Position numbers and translations under genes: made by a program. A stretch of DNA of 64,000 bases from a virus (taxonomy: Duplodnaviria > Heunggongvirae > Uroviricota > Caudoviricetes). The notes beneath the pieces are model-generated. The model had not been told where the DNA came from and did no database searches. It saw nothing but the letters and a program-made list of their open reading frames with translations. Shown here piece after piece: positions 37,166 through 49,450 of the stretch. Numbering within the stretch: position 1 is the stretch's first letter; each line of letters begins with the position of its first letter. The stretch spans positions 59,632-123,631 of the IMG/VR virus record IMGVR_UViG_3300042991_000725; one strand, written 5' to 3'.

Positions 37166-37174
37166 TTTTTTCTA

Positions 37175-37202
37175 TTGACAAAATCTGGTTTAGGTGTATA
37201 CT
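37175..37202 (+). promoter_or_regulatory. sigma70-type promoter (TTGACA-16-TATACT)
   Basis: TTGACA at 37175-37180 and TATACT at 37197-37202. Confidence 0.55.
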
Positions 37203-37208
37203 AATAAT

Positions 37209-37409
37209 AGCTTCTTACTCTTTTATAGGGGTGCGCTTTCCGTGAGATTGAAGCAATCCATATTTACCTATCTCGATATGGCCATTACGTCCCCCGGACT
37301 AGGGGAACGAACATGGTCAGTCCATCGAAATTTGGGTAGGAGAGTGATGGTGGGCTGAGGAAAACGGGAAAACCGAATTCCTCAACTCACCCACGAAAGT
37401 GGGTTTTTT
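37209..37409 (+). ncRNA. candidate ~200-nt structured small RNA / tRNA-operon leader
   Basis: No ORF; bounded by the promoter above and an intrinsic terminator. Internal hairpin CCCCGGACTAGGGG and long-range pairing CCTATCTCGATATGG / CCATCGA...GGTAGG. Confidence 0.4.
37386..37409 (+). terminator. rho-independent terminator
   Basis: CACCCACGAAAGTGGG + TTTTTTG. Confidence 0.6.
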
Positions 37410-37428
37410 GTTTGTAGTAAAAAATCGT

Positions 37429-37504
37429 TCTGGGGTAGCTCAGCTGGTAGAGCGACGGACTGTTAATCCGTTTGTCGCAGGTTCAAATCCTGCTCCCAGA
37501 GCCA
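37429..37504 (+). tRNA. tRNA-Asn (GUU)
   Basis: Acceptor TCTGGGG/TCCCAGA, anticodon loop CU-GUU-AA, T-arm GGTTCAAATCC, CCA encoded. Confidence 0.8.
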
Positions 37505-37511
37505 AAATTAT

Positions 37512-37583
37512 CAGGGTGTGGGCCAATGGCTGGCCACCAGTCTTGGGCACTGGGTCATGCAGGTTCGACTCCTGTCACCCTGA
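37512..37583 (+). tRNA. tRNA-Pro (UGG)
   Basis: Acceptor CAGGGTG/CACCCTG, anticodon stem CCAGT/ACTGG, loop CU-UGG-GC. Confidence 0.75.
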
Positions 37584-37595
37584 TTTAATATGTGC

Positions 37596-37666
37596 GTCCC
37601 TGTGATCTAATGGCAGGATACCAGATTTTCAGTCTGGGTGCAAGGGTTCGATCCCCTTCAGGGATA
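37596..37666 (+). tRNA. tRNA-Glu (UUC)
   Basis: Acceptor GTCCCTG/CAGGGAT, anticodon loop UU-UUC-AG; D-arm TCTAATGGCAGGA homologous to bacterial tRNA-Glu. Confidence 0.75.
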
Positions 37667-37684
37667 TTTGTTCTTTGAAAATGT

Positions 37685-37758
37685 AGCCCATTAACTCAAC
37701 TGGCTAGAGTGCCACTTTTACACGGTGGAAGTTGAAGGCTCGAATCCTTCATGGGCTA
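37685..37758 (+). tRNA. tRNA-Val (UAC)
   Basis: Acceptor AGCCCAT/ATGGGCT, anticodon loop UU-UAC-AC, T-arm GAAGGCTCGAATCCTTC. Confidence 0.7.
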
Positions 37759-37764
37759 TTTAAT

Positions 37765-37838
37765 GCTCGGTTAGTGTAGTGACAACACGCGACACTGTCG
37801 ATGTCGAGTCAGGAGTTTAATTCTCCTACCGAGTGCCA
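37765..37838 (+). tRNA. tRNA-Asp (GUC)
   Basis: Anticodon stem CGACA/TGTCG, loop CU-GUC-GA; CCA encoded. Confidence 0.8.
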
Positions 37839-37865
37839 TTTTTTTCGGGCTATGTGCCCACCAAT

Positions 37866-37936
37866 GGGGACATAACATAATGGGAATGTGTTACCCTTGC
37901 AAGGTAAAAATGTGGTTTCGACTACCACTGTCTCCA
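37866..37936 (+). tRNA. tRNA-Ala (UGC)
   Basis: Acceptor GGGGACA/TGTCTCC with G3:U70 identity pair; anticodon loop CU-UGC-AA. Confidence 0.8.
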
Positions 37937-37985
37937 TTATCTTTTATTTTTTGCTCTTTGACAATATTGCTGTAAAACGTAACAC

Positions 37986-38073
37986 AGAAGCGTAGCCTAA
38001 CGGTAAGGCAGCACTTTGCTAAAGTGCCATGCGTCCACAAGGCGTATTGAGAGTTCAATTCTCTCCGCTTCTG
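37986..38073 (+). tRNA. tRNA-Ser (GCU)
   Basis: Type II; acceptor AGAAGCG/CGCTTCT+G, anticodon loop UU-GCU-AA, long variable arm. Confidence 0.8.
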
Positions 38074-38095
38074 CTTTATAAAACTAGGAGCCCAT

Positions 38096-38815
38096 ATGCA
38101 AACTAATACAATGAAGTGCGAATATGGATGTGGGAATAACGCTTTATACAAGTTGCCTAAAGGCAGATGGTGTTGTTCGACGAGCTTTAATTCGTGTCCT
38201 GCTTCCAGAGAAAAAAACAGAATAGCCGTTCTCGATAGCTATAAAAATGGAAGATCTGGTTATTGGAAAGGCAAAAGTTATCCAAGTTTTGGCAAAAAAT
38301 ATGAAGAAATGTACGGCAAGGACAGGTCTGAAATAATCAAAGATAAAATATCAAAGTCTTTGATTGGCGTTTCTCCGGGCAGAGCAAGTACGGACGAGAA
38401 AGAACAAATAAGAAGATCTCGCATTTCTGCAAAAATGATTCTTAATAAATGTGGCGGGTATAGGTACGGTAGCGGCAGAGGTAAAAAGGGAACATATAAG
38501 GGGTATTGGTGTGATAGTAGTTGGGAGCTAGCCTATGTTATTTATTGTTTAGATCATAGTATCAAAATAAGTAGAAATTGGACAAGGTTTCCTTATGTTT
38601 ATAAAGGCAAGCAGCGTTTTTGGATTCCAGACTTTGTTAAAGAAGATACCTATATCGAGATTAAAGGATATGAGACAAAAAAGGATGAAGCAAAATTCAA
38701 TTATTTTAAAAAGAGCTTGATTATTCTTAAAGAAAAAGAAATGCGTTTTATACTAAGTTATGTTACTGATAAATACGGAAAGGACTATATTTCAATGTAC
38801 GAAAGGAAGAGTTGA
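38096..38815 (+). CDS. zinc-finger + PD-(D/E)xK nuclease domain protein (putative homing endonuclease inside the tRNA array)
   Basis: 239 aa; AGGAG SD; N-terminal CEYGCG...CCSTSFNSC zinc cluster; C-terminal WCDSSWE...PDFVKEDTYIEIKG (D...E-x-K); stop overlaps the 5' end of tRNA-Ser(UGA) by 11 nt. Confidence 0.5.
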   Translation: MQTNTMKCEYGCGNNALYKLPKGRWCCSTSFNSCPASREKNRIAVLDSYKNGRSGYWKGKSYPSFGKKYEEMYGKDRSEIIKDKISKSLIGVSPGRASTDEKEQIRRSRISAKMILNKCGGYRYGSGRGKKGTYKGYWCDSSWELAYVIYCLDHSIKISRNWTRFPYVYKGKQRFWIPDFVKEDTYIEIKGYETKKDEAKFNYFKKSLIILKEKEMRFILSYVTDKYGKDYISMYERKS

Positions 38816-38896
38816 CCACAGTGGGTGCGTGGCCTTGTCTTGAAAACAAGTGCCCATGAAAGTGGGCTGAGAGTTCAAATCTCTCCTCTTCCTCCA
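38805..38896 (+). tRNA. tRNA-Ser (UGA)
   Basis: Type II; acceptor GGAAGAG/CTCTTCC, anticodon stem CTTGT/ACAAG, loop CU-UGA-AA, T-arm GAGAGTTCAAATCTCTC; end taken with encoded CCA. Confidence 0.7.
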
Positions 38897-38898
38897 CT

Positions 38899-38968
38899 GC
38901 CCCGTGGTGTAATTGGAAACGCGCTGGCCTTTGGAGCCGGAGTCTCCCGTTCAAATCGGGACGGGGCA
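38899..38968 (+). tRNA. tRNA-Gln (UUG)
   Basis: Acceptor GCCCCGT/ACGGGGC+A, anticodon loop CU-UUG-GA. Confidence 0.7.
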
Positions 38969-38977
38969 ATTTTATAC

Positions 38978-39049
38978 TGCCCAGTGGTGTAATAGAAACA
39001 TATCGGACTCTGACTCCGAAGACTTCAGGTGCAAGTCCTGACTGGGCAA
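38978..39049 (+). tRNA. tRNA-Gln (CUG)
   Basis: Acceptor TGCCCAG/CTGGGCA+A, anticodon stem TCGGA/TCCGA, loop CU-CUG-AC. Confidence 0.7.
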
Positions 39050-39058
39050 TTTTTATTC

Positions 39059-39142
39059 GCAAGTGTAGCCCGTTATGGAGGCGGATGAGCCTGTAGAGCT
39101 CATATCTTCGGATCATAGAAGGTTCGATTCCTTCCACTTGCA
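39059..39142 (+). tRNA. tRNA-Tyr (GUA)
   Basis: Type II; acceptor GCAAGTG/CACTTGC+A, anticodon stem TGAGC/GCTCA, loop CU-GUA-GA. Confidence 0.8.
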
Positions 39143-39153
39143 TTTTATATTGT

Positions 39154-39226
39154 CGCAGGGTCGCCAAATGGTAAGGCTCCAGACTCATAATCTGGCAATT
39201 TGCTGGTTCGATTCCGGCCCCTGCTA
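39154..39226 (+). tRNA. tRNA-Met or Ile2 (CAU)
   Basis: Anticodon stem CCAGA/TCTGG, loop CU-CAU-AA. Elongator-type (no 3 G-C pairs in anticodon stem); a C1:U72 mismatch is read at the acceptor end, so termini are approximate. Confidence 0.65.
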
Positions 39227-39237
39227 TTTATTTTTAT

Positions 39238-39310
39238 GGTGGCTATAGTGTAGAGGACTGCACGTCTGACTGTGGCTCAGGAAGTCTGGGATCGTTACCC
39301 AGTAGTCACC
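39238..39310 (+). tRNA. tRNA-His (GUG)
   Basis: Encoded extra G(-1) opposite discriminator C73 (His hallmark); acceptor GTGGCTA/TAGTCAC, anticodon loop CU-GUG-GC. Confidence 0.8.
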
Positions 39311-39321
39311 CCATTTTTCTT

Positions 39322-39394
39322 GCGAGTGTAGCTGAATAAGACTAGCACCGGATTTTTAATCCGGGATATGTGGGTGCGAATCCCATCACTCGCA
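39322..39394 (+). tRNA. tRNA-Lys (UUU)
   Basis: Acceptor GCGAGTG/CACTCGC+A, anticodon stem CCGGA/TCCGG, loop UU-UUU-AA. Confidence 0.8.
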
Positions 39395-39399
39395 CTTTT

Positions 39400-39472
39400 G
39401 CGTCTGTAGCTCAATTGGCAGAGCATTTGGTTCTTACCCAAGGGGTTGGAGGTTCAAGTCCTCCCAGACGCA
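39400..39472 (+). tRNA. tRNA-Lys (CUU)
   Basis: Acceptor GCGTCTG/CAGACGC+A, anticodon loop UU-CUU-AC. Confidence 0.7.
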
Positions 39473-39480
39473 TTTTATTT

Positions 39481-39553
39481 GCTGGTGTAGCTTAATGGTT
39501 AAAGCGTCAGCCTTATAAGCTGAAAATCGGTGGTCCAATTCCACCCACCAGTA
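39481..39553 (+). tRNA. tRNA-Ile (UAU)
   Basis: Acceptor GCTGGTG/CACCAGT+A, anticodon stem TCAGC/GCTGA, loop CU-UAU-AA (AUA decoder). Confidence 0.65.
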
Positions 39554-39560
39554 CCATTCT

Positions 39561-39636
39561 GCGCTCATGGTGTAATGGATAACATTTCTGACTACGAATC
39601 AGAAGAGTGCAGGTTCGAGTCCTGCTGGGCGTACCA
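39561..39636 (+). tRNA. tRNA-Arg (ACG)
   Basis: Anticodon stem TCTGA/TCAGA, loop CU-ACG-AA; CCA encoded. Confidence 0.75.
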
Positions 39637-39637
39637 T

Positions 39638-39709
39638 GTGCCTGTGGTGTAATGGATAACATGTCACGGTCCTAACGTGTCGATTTGGGTTCAATTCCCA
39701 ACGGGCATA
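39638..39709 (+). tRNA. tRNA-Arg (CCU)
   Basis: Anticodon stem CACG/CGTG, loop GU-CCU-AA; T-arm TTGGGTTCAATTCCCAA. Confidence 0.65.
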
Positions 39710-39735
39710 TTTACTTTGAAAGGCGGTGATAACCA

Positions 39736-40326
39736 ATGGTTCTAAATGACGCAACTCTTGTTTTGAATAAAGGATGGGTCCCAATCGGCTTCGCTTCAGT
39801 GCGCAGGGCTATGGAACTGTTGGTTACTGATAGGGCACAGGCGATTCTCCCAGACGACTATTCTGTCCATAATTTTGATTCTTGGGCAGATTTAAGGCTG
39901 TTAGACGATGAGATACGAATCCGTACTGTAAGTTTGGAAATAAAAGTTCCTGAGATCATCAGGCTAAATACATATACCGGAGTTCCGCAACACAAACTCA
40001 AGCTTTCTAGGCGCAATCTTTTCCGCAGGGATAATTGTACGTGTCAGTATTGCGGCAAACAACTCAAGAGCGAGGATGCAACTATTGACCATGTCATTCC
40101 GAGAGCATTGGGTGGTAAAACGACTTGGCTCAATTGTGTTATCGCCTGTCTCAAGTGCAATAGCAAAAAAGACGACAAGACGCTGGCTCAGTGTGGGATG
40201 AGATTGATAAAAATTCCTGTTGCACCTAATGGAATGGCAAGTATACGGATTCCTGTATTTAAGAAGAGGATCAGTTGGGATAAGTTTATTTCAGAAGCGT
40301 ATTGGAATATTGAACTTCTTGAATAG
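39736..40326 (+). CDS. HNH endonuclease (putative homing endonuclease inside the tRNA array)
   Basis: 196 aa; CQYCGK...DHVIPRALGG...N...CLKCN HNH motif with flanking zinc-ligand Cys pairs. Confidence 0.75.
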   Translation: MVLNDATLVLNKGWVPIGFASVRRAMELLVTDRAQAILPDDYSVHNFDSWADLRLLDDEIRIRTVSLEIKVPEIIRLNTYTGVPQHKLKLSRRNLFRRDNCTCQYCGKQLKSEDATIDHVIPRALGGKTTWLNCVIACLKCNSKKDDKTLAQCGMRLIKIPVAPNGMASIRIPVFKKRISWDKFISEAYWNIELLE

Positions 40327-40358
40327 GAGTTAAGCAGACAAACGTTTCGAATAAGCAC

Positions 40359-40431
40359 ATGCCCATAGTCTAATTGGATAGGCGCCAGACTTCTAATCTG
40401 GTTTATGAGGGTCCGAGTCCCTCTGGGCATA
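40359..40431 (+). tRNA. tRNA-Arg (UCU)
   Basis: Acceptor ATGCCCA/TGGGCAT+A, anticodon stem CCAGA/TCTGG, loop CU-UCU-AA. Confidence 0.75.
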
Positions 40432-40433
40432 TT

Positions 40434-40507
40434 GCGGGTGTGGCTCAGTGGTAGAGCGCGACGTTGCCATCGTCGATGCGAGGGTCCGATTCCCTTCACT
40501 CGCTCCA
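40434..40507 (+). tRNA. tRNA-Gly (GCC)
   Basis: Acceptor GCGGGTG/CACTCGC, anticodon stem CGACG/CGTCG, loop UU-GCC-AU; CCA encoded. Confidence 0.8.
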
Positions 40508-40508
40508 A

Positions 40509-40582
40509 GCGCCTGTGGTGAAATGGCATCACGAGAGTCTTCCAAACTCTAGTCCCGGGTTCAATCCCCGGTAGGCGCTCCA
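40509..40582 (+). tRNA. tRNA-Gly (UCC)
   Basis: Anticodon stem AGAGT/ACTCT, loop CU-UCC-AA; CCA encoded. Confidence 0.8.
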
Positions 40583-40594
40583 TTTTTTTTATAC

Positions 40595-40665
40595 GCTTGG
40601 ATAGCTCAACGGTAAGGCATCTGGTTGAAGCCCAGAAAATGCAAGTTCAATTCTTGCTCCAAGCA
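40595..40665 (+). tRNA. tRNA-Phe (GAA)
   Basis: Acceptor GCTTGGA/TCCAAGC+A, anticodon stem TCTGG/CCAGA, loop UU-GAA-GC. Confidence 0.8.
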
Positions 40666-40670
40666 TTTAT

Positions 40671-40744
40671 ACGGGTGTAGTGTAGTGAAAACATTTCAGA
40701 CTCCAAATCTGAAGACAGGGGTTCGATTCCTCTCGCCCGTGCCA
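40671..40744 (+). tRNA. tRNA-Trp (CCA)
   Basis: Anticodon stem TCAGA/TCTGA, loop CU-CCA-AA; CCA end encoded. Confidence 0.75.
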
Positions 40745-40847
40745 TGCTATAAATCGTATGTGGGGAGAATAAAAATGATCGTTAGAGCTGGAATGAATTA
40801 TGCCGATGCTGGAAGAATTGGATATTTGAAAGGGAAAAGTTATTAAT

Positions 40848-40919
40848 GCCCGATAAGCGTAGATGCCGACGCAGGACCCTTGTAAGGTTCAGAGGCTGGT
40901 TGAAGTCCAGCATCGGGCT
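40848..40919 (+). tRNA. tRNA-Thr (UGU)
   Basis: Acceptor GCCCGAT/ATCGGGC, anticodon stem GGACC/GGTTC, loop CU-UGU-AA, T-arm GCTGGTTGAAGTCCAGC. Confidence 0.7.
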
Positions 40920-40930
40920 TTTATTTATAC

Positions 40931-41001
40931 GCTGTTATAGCTTAGTGGCAAAGCAGGGCTTTCGTAAAGCTCAGACGTTGGTTCGATTCCAACTAGCAGC
41001 T
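40931..41001 (+). tRNA. tRNA-Thr (CGU)
   Basis: Acceptor GCTGTTA/TAGCAGC, anticodon loop UU-CGU-AA. Confidence 0.7.
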
Positions 41002-41006
41002 TTTGT

Positions 41007-41079
41007 GCCGCCATAGCTCAGTTAGAAGAGCGCATTCTTGGTAAGAATGAGGTCGTGAGTGCAAATCTCGCTGGTGGCT
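41007..41079 (+). tRNA. tRNA-Thr (GGU)
   Basis: Acceptor GCCGCCA/TGGTGGC, anticodon stem CATTC/GAATG, loop UU-GGU-AA. Confidence 0.75.
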
Positions 41080-41084
41080 TTTAT

Positions 41085-41156
41085 GCACGAGTAGCCAAGT
41101 GGCTAAGGCGGCAAGCTGCAACCTTGCTAATATGGGTTCGATTCCCATCTCGTGCT
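41085..41156 (+). tRNA. tRNA-Cys (GCA)
   Basis: Acceptor GCACGAG/CTCGTGC, anticodon stem GCAAG/CTTGC, loop CU-GCA-AC. Confidence 0.8.
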
Positions 41157-41163
41157 TATTTGT

Positions 41164-41249
41164 GGCCAAGTGGCGGAATGGCAGACGCGAGAGTTTCAAA
41201 AGCTCTTGTCCATACACGGACACTGTGGGTTCAAGTCCCACCTTGGCTA
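41164..41249 (+). tRNA. tRNA-Leu (CAA)
   Basis: Type II with long variable arm; anticodon stem AGAGT/GCTCT, loop UU-CAA-AA; T-arm GTGGGTTCAAGTCCCAC. Confidence 0.7.
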
Positions 41250-41255
41250 TTTTAT

Positions 41256-41329
41256 GGCGCCATAGCCCAACGGCAGGAGGCATCTCGCTTAGAACGAGAG
41301 CAGTGCTGGTTCGAGTCCGGCTGGCGTTA
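41256..41329 (+). tRNA. tRNA with anticodon UAG (Leu-type anticodon, atypical short variable arm)
   Basis: Anticodon stem TCTCG/CGAGA, loop CU-UAG-AA; variable region only 5 nt (GCAGT); T-arm GCTGGTTCGAGTCCGGC; acceptor has two G:U pairs. Confidence 0.55.
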
Positions 41330-41342
41330 TTTTTTCAAATCT

Positions 41343-41414
41343 GCGGATATAGCTCAGCAGTAGAGTTCTTGTCTGATAAGCAAGAGGTCGAAGGTGCGAT
41401 TCCTTCTATCCGCA
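41343..41414 (+). tRNA. tRNA-Ile (GAU)
   Basis: Acceptor GCGGATA/TATCCGC+A, anticodon stem CTTGT/GCAAG, loop CU-GAU-AA. Confidence 0.8.
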
Positions 41415-41495
41415 TTTTATATTTTGTAATAGTGGCAGCGATTGCCTTTAACTATATCAATGCTACTTGTGGCACCAGTGAATTGCCAACTGCCA

Positions 41496-41765
41496 TCAGT
41501 TGATCTTTAACCATTCGTCCGGGAAGCCCATTAACCACAGGCTTAATCTCGGATTGATGATATCAGACCTGGGAGGAGATTTCTCTCTGTAGTAGATTGC
41601 ACGTAGCAACGCGTCCGTCCGTTTGCGTTTCCCGCTTTGTTTCGCCATTCCGGGAGTGTTTTCCCAGTCTCGAGCTTTGTCATTGACGCCGTCGTTCTTC
41701 TGGATCAATTGGAGAAGGGCATTGAGGGATTCACACATTGAAAAGCTCCATCGTTTGTTCACCAT
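41496..41765 (-). CDS. hypothetical protein with C-terminal GFPD motif (possible C5-MTase C-terminal remnant)
   Basis: ORF 41496..41867 overlaps the upstream MTase; likely starts at an internal Met; ends ...NPRLSLWLMGFPDEWLKIN resembling the (E)CxRLMGFPDxF segment of C5-MTases; GC-rich (~50%). Confidence 0.3.
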   Translation of the reverse strand: MVNKRWSFSMCESLNALLQLIQKNDGVNDKARDWENTPGMAKQSGKRKRTDALLRAIYYREKSPPRSDIINPRLSLWLMGFPDEWLKIN

Positions 41766-42717
41766 TCGCCTTTGCATGCGATATCTTTTGTTCGCTGAGA
41801 CTATTTCTTTCCCAAAACACACCGTCAGAATACCCTTGAATGCTCGAATCTGCTTTAGCTGCTTCAAGTCGCTTATGCGTCCAGCAGCAATACTCCCGGT
41901 TCAGTTCTATGCCGCAATACCGGCGTCCGAGTTTCTTTGCAGCGACAGCCGTTGTGCCGCTTCCGAGGAAGGGATCGAAAACAAAATCGCGGGGGAGTGA
42001 ACTGGCGAGAATTAGTTTCGCGATCAATTTCTCAGGCTTCTGTGTGGGATGGTCCGTGTTTTCCGGCATGGACCAGAAGGGTATCGTTATGTCAGACCAC
42101 AAGTTCGATGGATGGGTGAGTCTGTAGTTCCCATTGTCCGATTCTTCCCAATCCTTTGGTTGCCCGTCCTCGTGCCGATACGGTGCGATAACTTTCCGTT
42201 TTAGCTTAACGGCGTCCACGTTAAAGGTGTAATCGTCGTCCCGTGTGCAGAACCAGATGTCCTCTGTGTTGTTCTTCCAGTTTGCTTTTGCGCCACGACC
42301 CTTTTCGCGTTCCCACGTAATCCTGTTGCGGACATGTAGATGTCTGTCCAGAACAGGGAAAACCAGCGTGGAGGTGCGCCAATCACTGCATACGTACACG
42401 GACGACCTTGCTCGGAGTAAGGGCGTCATGGCTGACAACATACTCTCGAACCATGACGCATACTCCTCCGACTCCTGTGCGTGGAACACATGCCCGTTGA
42501 AATCCTTTGTCAGATTGTACGGGGGGTCAAGGATGAGGAGATCTACAAAGGCACGGGGAAGCAACGGGCACGCATCCCGGAAATCCTGATTGATCACGCG
42601 GTCCGTCACGTCTTCTACGGTAGCGGGGTGCGACAAGTGCAGTAGCGTGGAGGACAAATCAGACAACTCCTCCGCAGTGCATGTCAGCGTTCTATTCCGT
42701 GGTGAGCGTGTCTTCAT
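41731..42717 (-). CDS. DNA N6-adenine/N4-cytosine methyltransferase (beta-class), GC-rich foreign-looking gene
   Basis: LILDPPYNL (motif IV) then FDPFLGSGTTAVAA (motif I); ~50% GC against a ~37% background; overlaps the upstream dcm-like gene by 4 nt. Confidence 0.75.
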   Translation of the reverse strand: MKTRSPRNRTLTCTAEELSDLSSTLLHLSHPATVEDVTDRVINQDFRDACPLLPRAFVDLLILDPPYNLTKDFNGHVFHAQESEEYASWFESMLSAMTPLLRARSSVYVCSDWRTSTLVFPVLDRHLHVRNRITWEREKGRGAKANWKNNTEDIWFCTRDDDYTFNVDAVKLKRKVIAPYRHEDGQPKDWEESDNGNYRLTHPSNLWSDITIPFWSMPENTDHPTQKPEKLIAKLILASSLPRDFVFDPFLGSGTTAVAAKKLGRRYCGIELNREYCCWTHKRLEAAKADSSIQGYSDGVFWERNSLSEQKISHAKANGEQTMELFNV

Positions 42718-43676
42718 AATTTTCTGGGCTTTGGTTGTACAATCTGGGCTTTTACAGGTTGCTTTTTTCCCAGAGCATTGATCATTTCATGAGCTATAGA
42801 TTTTATTACAGGGACTGCGACTGAATTTCCTGCAACCTTTCTCACCTGTGAATAAGGAATGTTTATAATAAAATCATCAGGGAATCCTTGTAATCTAAGC
42901 ATTTCTCTTCCTGTTAGCCTTCTCGTTCCATTAACAACAAGATAGTTGTAGCTCCCACCAGCTCTTAATGCACACGAGTACGGGAGTGCTGAGATGTTCC
43001 CGCCAATATTTTCGTGCCATATAGAAGGATATGGAGGGGTTCCTTTTACGGCTTGAAGTCTTTTCTCCTTCAACCTTTCAGAAATAAAATAATTTGATGG
43101 GACATCTATTTCTTTTTCAAGAAATTCTGTAAGGGGCCTATAAAATCCTATTGGTTTTGGAAAATCCAAATGGATTTTATCTTTAAATCCTACAATGTAA
43201 ATTCGTTCCCTTTTTTGAGGTACACCGAAGTCAAGCGCGTTCAAAACCTTGTGGTAAACGGTATACCCTATCTCATTGAGTTTTTCTAAAATTATTTTAA
43301 ATGTTCTCCCTGAATCATGTGTTGTTAAACGTTTTACATTTTCAAGTAAAAAGGCTGTTGGTTTTTTGACTTTCAAAATCGACTCAATATTAAAGAACAA
43401 TGTTCCTCTTGTATCAGAAAAACCTAATCCTTTACCTGCTATGCTAAATGGTTGGCATGGGAAACCAGCAAGTAGAATGTCATGGTCAGGAATGTCTTCA
43501 GGTTTAATCAAATTTATATCACCGAAGGGTTTTTCTTTAAAATTTGCTTCGTACATAGCCTGTGCGTATTTATCCCATTCAGATGAAAAAACATTCTCGC
43601 AATCATAACATTGAAATCCTAAGCGAATTCCGCCAATACCGGCAAAAAGGTCTATAGTTCTATATTTATTCGTCAT
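42714..43676 (-). CDS. DNA (cytosine-5)-methyltransferase
   Basis: DLFAGIGG (I), GFPCQPFS (IV), ENV (VI), QKRERIYIVG (VIII), RLQGFPDDF, GNSVAVPV (X). Confidence 0.85.
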   Translation of the reverse strand: MTNKYRTIDLFAGIGGIRLGFQCYDCENVFSSEWDKYAQAMYEANFKEKPFGDINLIKPEDIPDHDILLAGFPCQPFSIAGKGLGFSDTRGTLFFNIESILKVKKPTAFLLENVKRLTTHDSGRTFKIILEKLNEIGYTVYHKVLNALDFGVPQKRERIYIVGFKDKIHLDFPKPIGFYRPLTEFLEKEIDVPSNYFISERLKEKRLQAVKGTPPYPSIWHENIGGNISALPYSCALRAGGSYNYLVVNGTRRLTGREMLRLQGFPDDFIINIPYSQVRKVAGNSVAVPVIKSIAHEMINALGKKQPVKAQIVQPKPRKL

Positions 43677-43833
43677 GTTTCGTTCGTTTTTCTTTTCTTT
43701 TTCTGCCTAACATCCCATTGCACATCATGCCCGATATTGGCAAAACTTCTGAGGATTGAGTAGCAAGTGCAAACCCGCCAATTCCCGAAAAGAGGTCAAG
43801 AACCGAGAATGTGGTCGTGGATGATAAGCCCAT
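43666..43833 (-). pseudogene. remnant N-terminus of a second C5-MTase (55-aa ORF with motif I)
   Basis: MGLSSTTTFSVLDLFSGIGGFALATQ... carries FxGxGG motif I, then ends; overlaps the start of the intact C5-MTase in another frame. Confidence 0.4.
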
Positions 43834-43892
43834 ATTTTATTTGTGATTCATAATAATGGTGAAGTTACAGTATGGCACAAACAAGACTTTTG

Positions 43893-44354
43893 TCAATCGT
43901 TGTTTATAATTTCGAGACTGGTTTGTATCCCAGACGCCGTACATATTGAATTTATAATTGCTATTATCTCGTGAATACTACTGGCATCGTTATACATTAT
44001 GGTCCATGCTGATAGTGTCATTTGCTTTGGATTGAAGACAACCCCCTCATAATCTAATATAGCACAAACTAAATCTTTTTTATTTTTGGCCTTTGATATT
44101 TTAGATCTATGTGTTTTTAATGTTTTTAATCTAGTTTTATAAAATTCTTTGAAAAAAGTCTTGTGGTCTTCTTTGCTTGCACTCTCTTCTCTTTTTATTT
44201 CTTTGTCTAAAGTCTCTATTGTTCTAGATTTGTCTAGCGTTAAAGAGAATTGTTCTATTAAAAATTGCACAAACGATTCTGGACTTTGACCAATAATCTT
44301 GAGTATAAAGCTTGCGCTGCTAGAATTAGCAACAAATCCAGCTCTTATTTTCAT
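43893..44354 (-). CDS. hypothetical protein (paralog of 3288..3914)
   Basis: MKIRAGFVANSSSASFIL N-terminus shared with 3288..3914. Confidence 0.5.
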   Translation of the reverse strand: MKIRAGFVANSSSASFILKIIGQSPESFVQFLIEQFSLTLDKSRTIETLDKEIKREESASKEDHKTFFKEFYKTRLKTLKTHRSKISKAKNKKDLVCAILDYEGVVFNPKQMTLSAWTIMYNDASSIHEIIAIINSICTASGIQTSLEIINND

Positions 44355-45052
44355 TGCGATTTCCCTTTAGATTTAGCCGACTTTATAAGATCTTCCAAGC
44401 TACTAAGTTTAGCAAGCTTTATTTTCCCGCTTTTAATATCCCTAACCCTCTTTTGCATTTCGTTTCTTGTCTTTATAACTTTTTCTGGTGTTCCAAAAAA
44501 TGATAATTCGTAAAATATGGCCGATATTACTTCTTTTAAAGTAAAGTTACAATGAACGTCTTTGGCTATTATGTTGCTACTAATAATTTTATATTTATTA
44601 TCATATTGTACGTGAGTGAAGTTGTATTTGTTCTGTATCACTATCGGCAAATGATCTATTTCATTAACAATTGTAAAGTCAAGCCCGAATCTATTTTCGT
44701 CATCCCCAATGCCATCAAAAATATTATAAAATTGCAGATCGTCTTCATTCCCCAGTTGTGTTTCTAAACAAGCTATCTTCTCAATATTAAGACTTTTTAT
44801 ATTTTTTGATTTTTCAAATTTTCCGACATTAGTTTTCCAAAAATGCAATGTGGGCACCAGGCACCCGTCTCCAAGGATATCTATAAACAACATATCTTTA
44901 TATATGGCCTCAAGAAAATTTCTGAACACTGCGCCCTTTTCTATGATCAGCATTTTGAATGAAAGGCTGAGAATCTGTCCTGTTCCACAGATGTTCTTGT
45001 TTTTATACAACAGCTTCGACGATTTAGTCAGTGTTACAGCTTCATTATACAT
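44351..45052 (-). CDS. hypothetical protein
   Basis: ORF 44351..45106 trimmed to an internal Met to limit overlap with the upstream gene. Confidence 0.4.
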   Translation of the reverse strand: MYNEAVTLTKSSKLLYKNKNICGTGQILSLSFKMLIIEKGAVFRNFLEAIYKDMLFIDILGDGCLVPTLHFWKTNVGKFEKSKNIKSLNIEKIACLETQLGNEDDLQFYNIFDGIGDDENRFGLDFTIVNEIDHLPIVIQNKYNFTHVQYDNKYKIISSNIIAKDVHCNFTLKEVISAIFYELSFFGTPEKVIKTRNEMQKRVRDIKSGKIKLAKLSSLEDLIKSAKSKGKSQ

Positions 45053-45365
45053 TTGTCTTCCTCCCAAGTTTAACAGCCATATCAACAATAAGCGTCTGTT
45101 CGTCAATGTTCATTTCAAATATTTTAGACAGTTTTTTAGCTATTTTGTTTTTTTCGACATCGTTAATACATATTTCAAAAAAATCACCAACACTAGAAAG
45201 GTCCGTGATTAAAGAACATTCCGCGTGTTCTATACCACACATTTTACCTATTGTTTTTAGCACACGTTCTATAGCCTTGGCATGCTTCTTGACTATTCCT
45301 CTATTTGCTACAGTAATTTTTTTCCTCATTGGCTCTCCATTAAATATCAAAGGTTTCTGCATCAT
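45045..45365 (-). CDS. hypothetical protein
   Basis: 106-aa ORF. Confidence 0.4.
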   Translation of the reverse strand: MMQKPLIFNGEPMRKKITVANRGIVKKHAKAIERVLKTIGKMCGIEHAECSLITDLSSVGDFFEICINDVEKNKIAKKLSKIFEMNIDEQTLIVDMAVKLGRKTNV

Positions 45366-45529
45366 CTATATATTCATCTAACTCCTCTTTATATATAGAT
45401 CGTTGATATTCAACAATCCTGTTGGTTTTTTTCTTAAATTTTTCGGTTTTATCAAAAAAAACAATCTCTTTTAGCCTCTTCTCTTTCTTCGTGCTTTGTT
45501 TAACGTGCTCTCTGTCGTCACATTCCATC

Positions 45530-45802
45530 TTAACCGCTCCTACGAATAATATTAATGTAATTACGCTTAGTCTTTAAGCACTCGTCGCACACAAGAATCT
45601 CTATCCGTTCAATTCCCCCATCACTTCCGCGCCTATTTCCCATGTGATCCATTAATGTGTCATACAGCGCAGAGCCATAATTCCCGGCATCTTGGAAAAT
45701 AACTGTACTTGCTGGCGCTTCCCAAGTATCAATCCCTTTACCAGCAGGTTTTATTTTTTTAGAACAAACAATACACTTTGGATTACTTTTTAGTGTCTTC
45801 AT
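45530..45802 (-). CDS. zinc-ribbon protein
   Basis: 90 aa; CIVC...CDEC. Confidence 0.4.
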   Translation of the reverse strand: MKTLKSNPKCIVCSKKIKPAGKGIDTWEAPASTVIFQDAGNYGSALYDTLMDHMGNRRGSDGGIERIEILVCDECLKTKRNYINIIRRSG

Positions 45803-46100
45803 TTTCCGTCCTCTTTTTTCTTATCCATAATTTGCATATTCCAAACTGATTAATTCGTCTTCCGTTTGTCCAATGTTCCCACATGGCCCTTTGTTCTTTA
45901 AGCATCTGTTGCTCTGCCCTATTAAACGGTTCATTCATTTCTACTGATCCGCATAATGGACGCTCTCCGTTGTTTGCTGAACAAAAACACTTGCTATTTA
46001 TATCTAGGTCTTTGTATTCAAAAAACCACTTACAATTCCAACAGCCATCTTGTTTTTTATACGACCTATCTAATTTATAGAGCTTTGTTTGTTTTGCCAT
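45783..46100 (-). CDS. Cys-rich hypothetical protein
   Basis: 105-aa ORF. Confidence 0.4.
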   Translation of the reverse strand: MAKQTKLYKLDRSYKKQDGCWNCKWFFEYKDLDINSKCFCSANNGERPLCGSVEMNEPFNRAEQQMLKEQRAMWEHWTNGRRINQFGICKLWIRKKRTENEDTKK

Positions 46101-47319
46101 AATTTAAAAACCTTTCAGCTATTTGTGGTTTAACATATGATTTAAGTCCTCTTCGTATGCCATTGATTAATACATCGGTTAGTTCTGGACCTCCACGTTT
46201 AAGTGCCATAAGAAGCCTATATGTAGTTTCTGTTTGCCCACAACGCCCAAAGCAATTGTATTCGATAAAACGCTTAGCGTCTTTAATAAACCCATTATCT
46301 TGCAGTACTGTCGCCCATCGAATAACAAATTCTTTTTTGGCGTCAAAGTCGACCAGCGGCGCGTTTTCAAGCGGCGTTCTTGAAGATGGTTGAAAGTTGG
46401 TAATGCTGAAATCAATACGTATGTTGTGGGAGCAACCTTTTCTCATTTGTCCGATGATATTTACCCAATTATACCATTCTTGATAATTGTCGTTTGGCAG
46501 TCCGTATATGAGATAAAAATGCAGAGTTGTCATATATGACATCATTTTTTGTATAGAATCTAACATAAAATCATTAGTAAAACCTTTCCCGATGCGCTTA
46601 CGCGTTTGTTCATCGAAGCTTTCTATTCCAGTGCGAACATTCTTTTGTAAATAATTTTGATATTTTATAATATTATTAATATAGAACATACATGTGTCTG
46701 AGTTAGCGACGAATATTTTTTTTGACATGGCATACTGGATAAGTTCATCAAACTTCGAGTAACCGGCAAAATTGGCAGACATAAAATTTACCGTCCTTGC
46801 CCCGTTTTTTACAAGCCAATCTATTTGTTTTTTGGCAAGATTCAGTTGTTTTTCTCTGTACTTGCACGTATTCCAAGAATATTCACAAAATGCACACTTA
46901 AGCCTGCAGCCTCTGGTTAATTCTATAATGCCGTTTTTATTGTTATTAATGAACGGATTCGTTACTATTTCATCTTTATTTTCTTTGTAATCATATTCGC
47001 CGCAAAACGTGCTATCAACAATGTCTTTTAATATCCAGTTATTGCCTATGCCTTGACCTCCAGCGATAATAACCGGCAGTCCATTGCGCCTATTTTTGAG
47101 AGGCTCAATCTTATTAATTCGTAAAAACGCCATTGCATTTATTATTTGTAATGGATAAAATATGTTAAATCCAATTGCGCTATATTGTTCCCAGTTTACT
47201 TTTTTGCTCCATTTTATTACATCGGCATTCCAAGAATCTTTTACTATTTGTAGGCCGAAATTTACTGTGTTTACTTGTTCAAGGTCGTATGGAGTTGTGT
47301 CTACTATTAGTGTTTTCAT
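46075..47319 (-). CDS. radical SAM protein with N-terminal B12-binding-like domain
   Basis: 414 aa; N-terminal ~150 aa Rossmann-like (VIIAGGQGIGN); core ELTRGCRLKCAFCEY = CxxxCxxC. Confidence 0.55.
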   Translation of the reverse strand: MKTLIVDTTPYDLEQVNTVNFGLQIVKDSWNADVIKWSKKVNWEQYSAIGFNIFYPLQIINAMAFLRINKIEPLKNRRNGLPVIIAGGQGIGNNWILKDIVDSTFCGEYDYKENKDEIVTNPFINNNKNGIIELTRGCRLKCAFCEYSWNTCKYREKQLNLAKKQIDWLVKNGARTVNFMSANFAGYSKFDELIQYAMSKKIFVANSDTCMFYINNIIKYQNYLQKNVRTGIESFDEQTRKRIGKGFTNDFMLDSIQKMMSYMTTLHFYLIYGLPNDNYQEWYNWVNIIGQMRKGCSHNIRIDFSITNFQPSSRTPLENAPLVDFDAKKEFVIRWATVLQDNGFIKDAKRFIEYNCFGRCGQTETTYRLLMALKRGGPELTDVLINGIRRGLKSYVKPQIAERFLNYGKTNKAL

Positions 47320-47489
47320 AAGAAAGGCTGGTGATCAGGTCGCTATGTCGTATGATGGTGTCCCGACGGTATTGAGCGGGCTTCCGCCTGTCGGTGAGTC
47401 TTGACTTATAGCCAAGAGCGCCTCATACAAACGTCTTAGTGACGAACACCCCTCATTGCGCCAGCCGCTATTATATACACTCAAATTCA

Positions 47490-48053
47490 TTATTTGTTTT
47501 TTGACCATAAACCAATGCCCTTGTCTTTGGCTACACATTCTTCTTTAATATATTCCGACCTATGCTTGAAATTAAATTTTGTATAAGCAAGAGCATAGCC
47601 GTATCTTATAAGATTAAGATTCAAACAATCTCCATTTTCGTCATAAACATACGCAAGGGTTCTTCCAAACATGTCTGTTTTTTTGTCTCCAAATTCTAAA
47701 TAAAGATTTTTATTGTATGTAAATGTTTCAGTATATATTTTTGCCTCTTCTGCCATATATTCTGGGCGGTGACTATTGCTTTTCATTTCTGGCGTATCCA
47801 CACCTATTAGTCGTACCTTTATAACTTCTCTGTTGTTCGTTATTCTAACCTCTATCGTGTCTCCGTCTATACTTCTAGTCATTTTTGCTTTTGTAAGACT
47901 TTCTTGAAAGGGGGTTGTAGCAATCTTAGCAGACTTTGTTTTATATTCTTTTGTTGTGTCATTGTTCTCTACACAAATATTAATTATTATGCTTGAAAAA
48001 AGTCCAGCTACAAAGCAAAAAAAATACATAAACGTTGTGATTGTTTTATTCAT
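47490..48053 (-). CDS. secreted thermonuclease (staphylococcal-nuclease/SNc family)
   Basis: N-terminal hydrophobic signal/TM; DGDTIEVR...RLIGVDTPE...GDKKTDMFGRTLAYV...NLNLIRYGYALAY...GLW matches the SNase catalytic core. Confidence 0.8.
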   Translation of the reverse strand: MNKTITTFMYFFCFVAGLFSSIIINICVENNDTTKEYKTKSAKIATTPFQESLTKAKMTRSIDGDTIEVRITNNREVIKVRLIGVDTPEMKSNSHRPEYMAEEAKIYTETFTYNKNLYLEFGDKKTDMFGRTLAYVYDENGDCLNLNLIRYGYALAYTKFNFKHRSEYIKEECVAKDKGIGLWSKNK

Positions 48054-48288
48054 TTTTTCCCATATCTACTGTTGTATTATATACACATCCGTTTATTACT
48101 AAGCAAAGTTTTACAAGATCGTCTAACTTTCCGTTAAAAATAACTTTTGCATTTTCAATACAATCCGGTGTGGGCTCGGCCACAAACCCTATTATACACA
48201 TATTTGTTCTTTTAACAAGTTCAGCAGAAAGCTCTTCATTTGTATATATCTCTATACCAACAGAACGTTTGCAATTGTTTTTTTTCAC
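48046..48288 (-). CDS. hypothetical protein
   Basis: 80-aa ORF. Confidence 0.35.
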   Translation of the reverse strand: MKKNNCKRSVGIEIYTNEELSAELVKRTNMCIIGFVAEPTPDCIENAKVIFNGKLDDLVKLCLVINGCVYNTTVDMGKNE

Positions 48289-49394: not shown

Positions 49395-49450
49395 TGTGCG
49401 TCTTGCAACAAATGTGTTTTATTTTATTGATAAATTGGCCATATTGGAAG

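What the first reader, a model, noticed from the sequence alone, without database searches (positions are those of the whole stretch)
41496..43833. Methyltransferase cassette: GC-rich foreign amino-MTase beside a C5-MTase, flanked by MTase remnants
The beta-class N6A/N4C MTase (41731..42717) and the ORF 3' of it are ~50% GC against a ~37% background, indicating recent horizontal acquisition. It overlaps by 4 nt a complete C5-cytosine MTase with all ten motifs. Immediately 5' of that gene is a 55-aa ORF carrying a C5-MTase motif I (DLFSGIGGF), and 3' of the cassette an ORF ends with a C5-MTase-like LMGFPDEW segment. This suggests repeated MTase replacement or insertion at this locus. With the third amino-MTase at 34601..35422, the genome invests heavily in anti-restriction DNA methylation.
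Basis: partly seen in the sequence, partly recalled or inferred. Interest (0 to 1): 0.5.

Follow-up and report, generated by a model that had tools for sequence, protein, structure and literature searches.

The report
Stacked captured methylase genes in phage
A large tRNA-rich phage carries two intact DNA methylase genes, each cut out of a bacterial restriction-modification operon with the restriction gene lost, and both sit inside the wreck of an older, unusual two-subunit cytosine methylase gene; this is an ordinary anti-restriction strategy, preserved here with base-pair detail.

Summary
All features are on the minus strand.

- **Intact genes.** A C5-cytosine methylase lies at 43676..42714. 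It overlaps by 4 nt a beta-class amino-methylase at 42717..41731. That gene has the highest GC (0.52) and GC3 (0.60) of the 43 long ORFs.
- **One wrecked gene, not two.** The two flanking "remnants" are the two ends of a single dead gene. It was a C5-methylase of the rare M.EcoHK31I type, in which a beta subunit is encoded in another frame inside the alpha gene. It has an internal deletion of about 440 nt and two Trp-to-stop mutations. About 71 nt were replaced by a 2.03-kb insert.
- **Block A (AT-rich).** A methylase 74-77% identical to genes that sit beside HaeII-family restriction enzymes.
- **Block B (GC-rich, about 42745..41671).** It is 80-84% identical in DNA to bacterial methylase-restriction operons. 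It still carries the first 23 codons of the restriction gene, fused to the old beta remnant.

The locus is a new member of a known kind, namely phage orphan methylases. As a side result, nested alpha/beta methylase genes are widespread and go unannotated, for example in Mycobacterium phage Hades.

The parts
43869..43896 (-). Promoter-like site (TTGACA, 16-nt spacer, TG-CATACT) upstream of the old alpha start codon. It is a candidate driver of the whole minus-strand string of genes.
   Evidence: Consensus scan, 10 of 12 matches. The number of such sites in the region is not above the shuffled expectation, so this is only a candidate.
43756..43833 (-). Remnant 1a: the start codon and first 26 codons of the ancestral alpha subunit, including C5 motif I (FSVLDLFSGIGGFALAT). 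This forms the 5' part of the 55-aa ORF.
   Evidence: tblastn with L001 and L002 alpha gives 85% identity at E=5e-6 and 1e-5. The DNA alignment runs to 43755. The start position matches that of L002 alpha.
43709..43757 (-). Remnant 1b: a 49-nt piece from the middle of the alpha/beta gene. In the alpha frame it reads ILRSFANIGHDVQWDV (motif VII/VIII region). In the beta frame it reads SSEVLPISGMMCNGML. A deletion of about 440 nt joins it to remnant 1a and switches the ORF from the alpha frame to the beta frame.
   Evidence: tblastn hits in both frames (E=0.011 and 0.002). blastn shows 84% identity over 49 nt to L001 2210..2258. The alignment is and the codon view.
43677..43708 (-). A 32-nt A-rich leader that arrived with the C5-methylase. 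It is the start of inserted block A.
   Evidence: Homology to alpha/beta ends at 43709. There is no similarity to the regions upstream of the relatives L028 and L029.
42714..43676 (-). Intact C5-cytosine methylase (320 aa, GC 0.36). It is block A, derived from a HaeII-type restriction-modification system. Its last ~9 codons (42743..42714) are read from the former leader of block B.
   Evidence: PF00145 E=1.8e-92 and TIGR00675 E=8e-103. It is 74-77% identical to L028 and L029, with an almost invariant target-recognition region. Both relatives are followed by RE_HaeII, PF09554, E=1e-147 and 3e-159. Homology to L028 ends at 42750.
41731..42717 (-). Intact beta-class amino-methylase (328 aa, GC 0.52, GC3 0.60), probably N6-adenine. 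It is the core of block B.
   Evidence: PF01555 E=9.7e-42 and PADLOC MTase_II E=9e-59. It is 86-88% identical to bacterial proteins. DNA identity is 80.4% to L044 and 84.3% to L048.
41671..42745 (-). Block B as a whole: about 26 nt of leader, the amino-methylase, and 69 nt of the restriction gene. It is a fragment of a bacterial Type II methylase-restriction operon.
   Evidence: blastn places window 42730..41671 on L044 4184..5243 (80.4% over 1060 nt). It places 42743..41674 on L048 2472..3544 (84.3% over 1073 nt).
41670..41738 (-). Fossil of the restriction endonuclease gene: its first 23 codons (MCESLNALLQLIQKNDGVNDKAR). The start codon lies 8 nt before the methylase stop, as in intact operons.
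   Evidence: tblastn of seven family members maps exactly residues 1-23 to 41738..41670, E=2e-4 to 1e-2 against the whole window. The 385-aa family matches PADLOC REase_II PDLC03461 at E=1.3e-154. The same 8-nt overlap is seen in L042 and L044; in L005 the same gene follows the methylase with overlapping frames.
41496..41675 (-). Remnant 2a: the last 59 codons and stop of the ancestral beta subunit (ARDWENTPGMAKQ...NPRLSLWLMGFPDEWLKIN*, motif IX). It is fused in frame to the restriction-gene fossil, giving an 80-aa chimeric ORF (41738..41496).
   Evidence: tblastn with L001 beta residues 147-205 gives 73% identity, E=4e-25. The junction is at GCTCGA, 41675..41670, whose Ala-Arg codons are present in both parent types. 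The 80-aa ORF is called as a gene on Logan contig L035.
41425..41670 (-). Remnant 2b: the C-terminal part of the ancestral alpha subunit, in another frame over the same DNA, including motif X (MAVGNSLVPQVA). It is broken by TGA at 41565..41563 and TAG at 41454..41452, both at Trp positions conserved in the three metagenomic relatives. It ends next to tRNA-Ile (41342..41415).
   Evidence: tblastn with L001 and L002 alpha gives E=2e-19 and 1e-18. Codons are shown. L036 confirms the third relative.
34601..35422 (+). A third intact methylase of the window (amino-methylase, 273 aa).
   Evidence: PF01555 E=4.6e-56. It is related to the 41731..42717 gene only over the C-terminal ~96 residues, at 38% identity.

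Best explanation
The locus is a layered record of methylase capture by a large, tRNA-rich phage.

**Layer 1.** A C5-cytosine methylase gene of the nested two-polypeptide type ran from about 43833 to about 41425, ending against the tRNA array. In this type, alpha carries motifs I-VIII and X. Beta carries the target-recognition-like region and motif IX, and is encoded in another frame inside alpha.

**Layer 2.** DNA from two different bacterial Type II restriction-modification operons now sits inside that gene, replacing about 71 nt of it.
- Block A is a HaeII-type C5-methylase. It was cut off just before its restriction gene.
- Block B is an amino-methylase with its short leader and only the first 23 codons of its restriction gene.

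The joins have no transposon ends. At the two joints examined at base level, only short (3-6 nt) shared sequence is present. This pattern points to illegitimate recombination.

**Decay of the old gene.** It lost about 440 nt, including the catalytic motifs IV and VI, and acquired two Trp-to-stop changes.

**Present state.** The string reads: remnant ORF (55 aa), C5-methylase, amino-methylase, chimeric 80-aa ORF. The reading frames overlap by 11, 4 and 8 nt.

**Inferred function.** The two intact enzymes methylate phage DNA and protect it from host enzymes of the same specificities. These are predicted to be RGCGCY for the C5 enzyme and an unknown, probably adenine, site for the other. The remnant ORFs are not expected to have methylase activity.

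**Shown versus inferred.** Shown: the homologies, frames, junction positions and composition. Inferred: the order of events, expression, specificities and the protective role.
For: **The remnants are one nested alpha/beta gene.**
- Intact relatives L001, L002 and L036 each have an open alpha frame (motifs I, IV, VI, VIII, X; PF00145 E=4.7e-40) with a 170-205-aa beta ORF wholly inside it in another frame.
- The window pieces map collinearly onto them in the same orientation and the same two frames. The alpha pieces correspond to L001 ORF residues 79-99, 247-262 and 288-365. The beta pieces correspond to residues 105-123 and 147-205.
- The beta stop codon falls at the same place (WL[EK][IT][ND]*) in the window and all three intact relatives.
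- The alpha remnant has stops where the three metagenomic relatives have Trp.
- This architecture is the one published for M.EcoHK31I (PMC2836561, PMC3404938).

**Block B comes from a methylase-restriction operon.**
- DNA identity of 80-84% to L044 and L048 ends at 41671-41674 and at 42730-42743.
- In L005, L042, L044, L045 and L047 the homologous methylase is followed by a 385-aa gene. The two genes overlap by 8 nt in L042 and L044-L047.
- That gene family matches PADLOC REase_II at E=1.3e-154.
- Residues 1-23 of that family map to 41738..41670.
- 18 of the 80 best genome loci carry the restriction gene directly downstream.

**Block A comes from a HaeII-type system**.

**Composition**. Relatives of the amino-methylase keep 47-55% GC whether their contig is 30% or 62% GC.

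**No mobile-element signature.** No intron RNA was found and there are no terminal repeats around the insert.

**Independent assembly support.** Two Logan contigs from run SRR35210686 are 100% identical to window 31485..42704 and 43626..54354. The second covers the junction between the 55-aa ORF and the C5 gene.
Against: - No relative of the phage backbone was found, so no intact or empty version of this site exists for comparison, and the order of events cannot be fixed.
- The two Logan contigs stop at 42704 and 43626. The body of the C5 gene and the junction between blocks A and B (42750..42743) are therefore supported only by the window's own assembly.
- The microhomologies are inferred from present-day relatives, not from the true parents.
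- The specificities are predicted only from neighbours of homologues. RGCGCY sites in the window are neither clearly avoided nor enriched (z=-1.75).
- The promoter is only a consensus match.
- Nothing shows that either enzyme is expressed or active.
Confidence: 0.8

Rival explanations
1. Same parts, different history. The GC-rich pieces (the alpha/beta gene already interrupted by the methylase-restriction fragment) entered the phage as one block from a GC-richer genome. The AT-rich C5-methylase was inserted last, between the alpha/beta middle fragment and the amino-methylase.
For: Both alpha/beta remnants are GC-rich for this phage: 0.45 for 43677..43833 and 0.49 for 41496..41730, against a gene mean of 0.378. 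Intact relatives of the gene are 50-58% GC. The C5 gene body is exactly the part missing between the two Logan contigs (42705..43625). That fits a segment which is polymorphic or shared with other genomes in that sample.
Against: There is no direct evidence for the order of events. Contig breaks in a unitig-style assembly can have other causes; another break, at 31485, coincides with a local repeat. The alpha/beta family may be GC-rich simply because of its Ser/Pro/Ala/Gly-rich sequence.
Confidence: 0.3
2. The two flanking fragments are relics of two different C5-methylase genes that were successively replaced. This is the literal reading of the first-stage note.
For: Each fragment on its own only shows a generic C5 motif. 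The Pfam hit of the 55-aa ORF is weak (E=0.057).
Against: Both fragments match the same small family far better than they match generic C5-methylases. The fragments are non-overlapping, collinear and in the same orientation. They reproduce the family's peculiar two-frame layout, including the middle piece that matches in both frames.
Confidence: 0.04
3. The remnants still function. For example, the 80-aa chimera (restriction-gene N-terminus plus beta motif IX), or the 55-aa ORF, could act as a subunit, regulator or translational leader for the intact methylases.
For: Both small ORFs are open and their ends overlap the neighbouring genes by 11 nt and 8 nt, which would allow translational coupling. 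A gene caller called the 80-aa ORF. Beta-type subunits do act in trans in M.EcoHK31I (PMC2836561).
Against: The partner alpha subunit is destroyed: motifs II-VI are deleted and there are two stops. The intact C5-methylase has its own motif IX. The chimera lacks the N-terminal ~145 residues of beta. A role as a leader ORF cannot be excluded, but it would be incidental.
Confidence: 0.06
4. The arrangement is an assembly chimera: the C5-methylase segment was joined in wrongly.
For: Independent contigs from SRR35210686 end at 42704 and 43626, at the two edges of the C5 gene. The exact C5 and amino-methylase proteins are not on record elsewhere.
Against: Contig L034 reads 50 nt into the C5 gene across the junction with the 55-aa ORF. 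At the other end the join yields a complete C5 ORF that terminates in an ATGA overlap with the next start codon, which is unlikely for a random misjoin.
Confidence: 0.05

Closest known systems
M.EcoHK31I, a two-polypeptide C5-cytosine methylase of E. coli with beta encoded inside alpha in another frame
   Same: The ancestral gene, judged from intact relatives L001, L002, L036 and phage Hades gp69, has alpha with motifs I-VIII and X. A beta ORF carrying motif IX lies wholly inside alpha in a different frame (PMC2836561 and PMC3404938).
   Different: In this family the long conserved region that looks like a target-recognition domain (SWKT..SGMMxNG..WLPTPxARD) is in beta. In M.EcoHK31I it is reported to be in alpha. 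Sequence similarity to M.EcoHK31I itself could not be tested. In the window the gene is dead.
M.AquI, a split C5-methylase with separate alpha and beta subunits
   Same: It is a two-subunit C5 enzyme divided within the variable region, and part of the recognition region is on the small subunit (PMC3404938).
   Different: In M.AquI beta carries motifs IX and X, and the genes are not nested. Here motif X stays on alpha.
Orphan (solitary) methylases of phages, derived from restriction-modification systems and used against host restriction
   Same: Two intact methylases lack a partner endonuclease. Their closest relatives are methylases of Type II systems.
   Different: The derivation is directly visible here. 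A 23-codon stub of the restriction gene and the operon's leader remain attached, so this is a documented capture rather than an inferred one.
HaeII restriction-modification system (RGCGCY)
   Same: Block A is 74-77% identical to methylases that directly precede RE_HaeII-family genes. The variable region is nearly invariant.
   Different: No HaeII-like endonuclease is in the window. The methylase has lost its own last ~20 codons. The specificity is predicted, not measured.

Membership tests
C5-cytosine DNA methylase (PF00145 / Dcm superfamily): gene 42714..43676 | Full-length match to the family profile, including the catalytic PC (motif IV) and ENV (motif VI) | tested here: met
   PF00145 E=1.8e-92 over profile positions 1-323 of 324. 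TIGR00675 scores 344 bits against a cut-off of 100.65. GFPCQPFS and LLENVK are visible in the translation.
C5-cytosine DNA methylase (PF00145 / Dcm superfamily): gene 42714..43676 | Methylation of cytosine C5 at a defined site | not testable with these tools
   Only a prediction (RGCGCY) is available, from the neighbours of homologues.
Beta-class N6A/N4C amino-methylase (PF01555): gene 41731..42717 | Profile match above the curated cut-off, with motif IV (DPPY) N-terminal to motif I (FxGxG) | tested here: met
   PF01555 scores 143.8 bits against a cut-off of 26.7. LILDPPYNL is near residue 60 and FDPFLGSGTT is near residue 247.
Beta-class N6A/N4C amino-methylase (PF01555): gene 41731..42717 | Target base (N6-adenine versus N4-cytosine) | tested here: inconclusive
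   The DPPY motif and the best named matches are adenine enzymes: M.MboIIA E=3e-24 and PRK11524 at 133 bits, which is below its cut-off of 292. There is no direct test.
Type II restriction-modification system | Methylase plus a cognate, intact restriction endonuclease in the same locus | tested here: not met
   Only 23 codons of the endonuclease remain. There is no other match to that family or to RE_HaeII in the window. The locus therefore holds orphan methylases, not a restriction-modification system.
Nested alpha/beta C5-methylase (M.EcoHK31I type): the ancestral gene | Beta ORF lies entirely within alpha in another reading frame | tested here: met
   Met in intact relatives: L001 alpha 1473..2627 with beta 1891..2508; L002 alpha 1793..2578 with beta 1986..2498; L036; and Hades L037 alpha 1278..1991 with beta 1420..1971. 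The window remnants show the same two frames over 41670..41496 and over 43757..43709.
Nested alpha/beta C5-methylase (M.EcoHK31I type): the ancestral gene | Alpha carries motifs I-VIII and X; beta carries motif IX | tested here: met
   Read from the translations of the relatives. In the window, motif I (43818..43756), motif IX (LMGFPDEW, beta frame) and motif X (GNSLVPQ, alpha frame) are present.
Nested alpha/beta C5-methylase (M.EcoHK31I type): the ancestral gene | Both polypeptides are made and both are needed for activity | not testable with these tools
   This is known for M.EcoHK31I only (PMC2836561). For this family it is inferred from both frames staying open across relatives that are 36-60% identical.
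Nested alpha/beta C5-methylase (M.EcoHK31I type): the ancestral gene | An intact, functional gene in this window | tested here: not met
   Alpha residues ~100-246 are deleted, 71 nt are replaced by the insert, and TGA and TAG occur at conserved Trp codons.
Transposon / insertion sequence / intron as the vehicle of the insert | Terminal inverted repeats, target-site duplication, a transposase, or a self-splicing RNA | tested here: not met
   No bounding repeats, no Rfam intron family, and no transposase-like ORF in 41400..43900.

The most novel reading that the evidence does not exclude
The nested alpha/beta layout of C5-methylases is so far treated as an oddity of M.EcoHK31I. It may instead be the normal design of a large, mostly phage-borne family. 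In that family the overlapping-frame beta subunit would carry the target-recognition region as well as motif IX.

The beta gene is systematically missed by annotation, for example inside gp69 of Mycobacterium phage Hades. The window shows that such genes can serve as landing sites for newer methylases.
Probability: 0.55. Interest if true: 0.55.

Novelty: new member of a known kind. Interest (0 to 1): 0.4.

Why it matters
Phages are known to carry orphan methylases, and these are assumed to come from restriction-modification systems. Here the origin is written in the sequence. The operon leader, the methylase and a 23-codon stub of the restriction gene are still attached, and the break points can be mapped to within a few bases.

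The locus is therefore a clean example of how a phage strips the harmless half out of a host defence system. It also shows that such captures pile up at one site, overwriting an older methylase.

It gives two testable predictions about the phage methylome. One is m5C at RGCGCY. The other is a second, probably m6A, motif shared with a very widespread bacterial system of unknown specificity.

The by-product may have wider use. The overwritten gene belongs to a large family of C5-methylases with an unannotated second subunit hidden in an overlapping frame, present even in well-studied mycobacteriophages.

Tried and rejected
- **Stop-codon reassignment.** This was considered for the long stretch without large ORFs (14.5-30.5 kb) and for the stops in the remnants. 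No single reassignment gives clean long ORFs. The two stops in the alpha remnant are different codons (TGA and TAG).
- **Apparent beta homology upstream of 41675.** tblastn weakly aligned SLNALLQLIQKNDGVNDK with the beta region TLYPLPRLVQATKGNDSG. This was rejected: the stretch is the N-terminus of the restriction gene.
- **Intron, intein or transposon as the vehicle.** There is no Rfam hit other than tRNA and there are no bounding repeats.
- **Syntenic relatives of the phage.** Three neighbouring proteins searched in IMG/VR gave nothing usable. Two exact-pattern scans of JGI metagenome contigs gave nothing. Exact look-ups of both methylases and of P0275 were not on record. P0275 is a 288-aa, 100% identical gene call on a 154-kb JGI contig.
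- **The 385-aa gene.** The PDB sequence search, Pfam and NCBIfam gave nothing. Only PADLOC names it.
- **The original M.EcoHK31I paper** (PMC306636) is not held.
- **Site-avoidance counts** did not help to assign specificities.
Full report
**Setting.** The window is 39% GC and looks like part of a large phage genome.
- It has 32 tRNA genes, most of them in a plus-strand array at 37429..41415.
- It also encodes RtcB, two radical-SAM proteins, a ribonucleotide reductase and a staphylococcal-type nuclease.
- The finding lies on the minus strand, immediately after the array, so the two are convergent.
- Two contigs from the Logan assembly of run SRR35210686 are 100% identical to window 31485..42704 and 43626..54354.
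- A 288-aa gene call that is 100% identical to the amino-methylase sits on a 154-kb JGI contig that I could not retrieve.

**Check of the observation.** Every stated element is there.
- ORF 41731..42717 is a beta-class amino-methylase (PF01555, E=9.7e-42). DPPY comes before FxGxG.
- Its GC (0.520) and GC3 (0.602) are the highest of the 43 long ORFs, at z=3.7 and z=4.1. In 100-nt windows, GC falls from 0.57 (42600-42699) to 0.41 and then 0.35 in the next two windows.
- It overlaps by 4 nt a full-length C5-methylase at 42714..43676 (PF00145, E=1.8e-92; TIGR00675, E=8e-103), whose GC is 0.36.
- The 55-aa ORF 43666..43833 and the 123-aa ORF 41496..41867 carry the quoted motifs.
- The third amino-methylase at 34601..35422 is real.

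**What the flanking fragments are.** I searched with the two fragments joined together.
- The search found three 200-205-aa proteins without any Pfam domain. They contain PLPxSGMMCNG...WLPTPIARDWKDTPGMAKQ and end ...LSLWLMG[FY]PxxWLE[IT][ND].
- It also found one 261-aa PF00145 protein. Its N-terminus matches the 55-aa ORF. Its C-terminus (YHQSNIQPVVNGLP..QLIAIGNTLVPQIA) matches a different frame of the 123-aa ORF region.
- On their contigs the two kinds of protein come from the same DNA. In L001, L002 and L036 an alpha ORF with motifs I, IV, VI, VIII and X contains, wholly inside it and in another frame, a 170-205-aa beta ORF with the recognition-like region and motif IX.
- This is the architecture published for M.EcoHK31I. 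That enzyme and M.AquI are cited as the only characterised two-polypeptide C5-methylases (PMC2836561, PMC3404938).

**How the window pieces map onto the family.**
- 43833..43756 is the alpha start codon and first 26 codons.
- 43757..43709 is a 49-nt middle piece that matches in both frames.
- 41675..41496 is the last 59 codons of beta, with its stop at the family's usual position.
- 41670..41425 is the alpha C-terminus with motif X, in the other frame. It is interrupted by TGA and TAG exactly where the three metagenomic relatives have Trp.
- The pieces are collinear, share one orientation and do not overlap in the parent gene. They are the ends of one dead gene.
- A deletion of about 440 nt (L001 scale) removed motifs II-VI. 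It changed the frame, so the 55-aa ORF starts as alpha and continues as beta.
- The dead gene ends a few bases from tRNA-Ile, so its 3' end is complete.

**What was inserted.** Between 43708 and 41671 lie 2038 nt that replace about 71 nt of the old gene (L001 2258..2328). The insert has two parts.

*Block A (43708..about 42750, GC about 0.36).*
- It consists of a 32-nt A-rich leader and the C5-methylase.
- The nearest relatives in IMG/VR, L028 and L029, are 74-77% identical, and the variable region is almost unchanged.
- Both relatives are directly followed by a HaeII-family endonuclease (PF09554, E=3e-159 and 1e-147). L029 also has a Vsr gene.
- Homology to them stops near residue 308.

*Block B (about 42745..41671, GC 0.52).*
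- It is 84.3% identical over 1073 nt to a Planctomycetaceae genome bin (L048).
- It is 80.4% identical over 1060 nt to three Gram-negative contigs of 57-59% GC (L044, L045, L047). There the gene lies beside leucyl-tRNA synthetase and an integrase fragment.
- The match begins 13-26 nt upstream of the start codon. It runs through the whole methylase and ends at 41671-41674.

**The restriction-gene stub.**
- In those bacteria, and in L005 and L042, a 385-aa gene follows the methylase. It starts 8 nt before the methylase stop in L042 and L044-L047.
- That family has more than 3300 members and is 75-90% identical across phyla.
- It matches the PADLOC model for a Type II restriction enzyme over its whole length (E=1.3e-154).
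- The window keeps the same 8-nt overlap and residues 1-23 of this protein: MCESLNALLQLIQKNDGVNDKAR. L044 has MCEPLAALIELIRDNDGINDKAR.
- The sequence then continues in frame into beta. The join is at GCTCGA (41675..41670), whose Ala-Arg codons occur in both parent types.
- The last ~9 codons of the C5 ORF (QIVQPKPRKL*) are translated from what used to be the leader of the amino-methylase. This is why the two genes end and start in an ATGA overlap.

**How it got there.**
- There are no inverted or direct repeats around the insert, no transposase and no intron-like RNA.
- The two joins examined at base level show only short shared sequences: AAT at the deletion and GCNCGN at the restriction-gene/beta join.
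- This is the signature of illegitimate recombination rather than of a mobile element.
- At least four events are needed: the deletion, the two outer joins and the A|B join.
- Their order is open. The alpha/beta remnants are themselves GC-rich (0.45-0.49). The body of the C5 gene is exactly what is missing between the two Logan contigs. It is therefore possible that the GC-rich material came first, or even together, and that the AT-rich C5 gene came last (rival 1).

**How it most likely works.**
- The minus-strand string is: 55-aa remnant ORF, C5-methylase, amino-methylase, 80-aa chimeric ORF. The overlaps are 11, 4 and 8 nt.
- A promoter-like site lies upstream of the old alpha start, but it is only a consensus match.
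- Both intact enzymes are complete by profile. Both descend from Type II systems whose endonuclease is gone, so they are orphan methylases.
- By established knowledge of such enzymes, they would modify phage DNA and blunt host systems of the same specificity.
- I predict RGCGCY for the C5 enzyme. For the other I predict an unknown motif, probably N6-adenine, because it has DPPY and its best named relatives are M.MboIIA and adenine enzymes.
- With the gene at 34601..35422, the window has three intact methylases.
- None of this is measured.

**Comparison with known systems and novelty.**
- The locus does not qualify as a restriction-modification system, because it has no endonuclease.
- It is not a live M.EcoHK31I-type enzyme either, because the catalytic motifs are deleted.
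- It is a new, unusually legible example of a known kind: phage orphan methylases taken from host restriction-modification operons and accumulated at one site.

**The overwritten gene family.** This is the less expected part.
- A search with one beta protein finds 3434 cluster representatives at E<=1e-3 and 254 at E<=1e-10. Many are stand-alone 160-300-aa proteins that end where beta ends.
- In GenBank phages the beta frame matches lie under genes annotated only as "DNA methyltransferase" (or hypothetical protein) in 14 mycobacteriophage records.
- In phage Hades the annotated gp69 is the alpha frame. A 183-aa beta ORF with SWKT...SGSMRNG...WRTPVARD...WLMGFPVEW lies unannotated inside it.
- In this family the long recognition-like region sits on beta. 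That differs from the published description of M.EcoHK31I.

**Verdict.**
- The novelty is modest for the locus itself. The widespread nested two-subunit methylase genes are a side lead worth following.

Noticed in passing
L037 1278..1991 (NC_026595.1 43298..44011, Mycobacterium phage Hades gp69); also 13 other mycobacteriophage records: The annotated 'DNA methyltransferase' is only the alpha frame (motifs I-VIII and X). A 183-aa ORF in another frame inside it (L037 1420..1971) carries the recognition-like region and motif IX, and it is not annotated. The same nested layout occurs in metagenomic contigs L001, L002 and L036.
   Followed up: partly
window 42705..43625: Two independent Logan contigs of the same phage (run SRR35210686) end at 42704 and 43626, leaving out exactly the body of the AT-rich C5-methylase. 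This may mean the segment is polymorphic, or shared with other genomes in that sample.
   Followed up: partly
window 28600..29500: A second GC-rich patch (up to 0.54 in 987-nt windows, equal to the amino-methylase) lies in a region of small minus-strand ORFs with no family assignment. It may be another foreign insert.
   Followed up: no
window 14500..30500: This is about 16 kb with hardly any ORF over 200 aa: only short minus-strand ORFs and three isolated tRNAs elsewhere on that strand. Reassigning any single stop codon does not produce clean long ORFs.
   Followed up: partly
whole window: GATC (z=-5.6), CCWGG (z=-5.2) and TCGA (z=-4.9) are strongly under-represented against a first-order Markov simulation built from the window's dinucleotide transitions. 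YGGCCR is over-represented (z=+3.9). This suggests site avoidance against other host restriction systems alongside methylation.
   Followed up: no
window 33022..41415: An RtcB RNA ligase (33022..34230) sits just upstream of a 29-gene tRNA array. The array is interrupted by an HNH endonuclease gene (39736..40326) and a 239-aa ORF (38096..38815). The layout is suggestive of a tRNA repair and replacement module against host anticodon nucleases.
   Followed up: no
window 31376..31490: A 115-nt direct repeat at 84% identity (31376..31490 against 31485..31599) coincides with the end of Logan contig L035.
   Followed up: no
L004 4166..5128 and L003 131..1075: Relatives of the amino-methylase (80-84% identical) occur as solitary genes in other viral contigs, beside a DnaB-like helicase or a terminase. 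In L004 the gene is 47% GC in a 30% GC contig. The same methylase has therefore been captured repeatedly by unrelated phages.
   Followed up: partly
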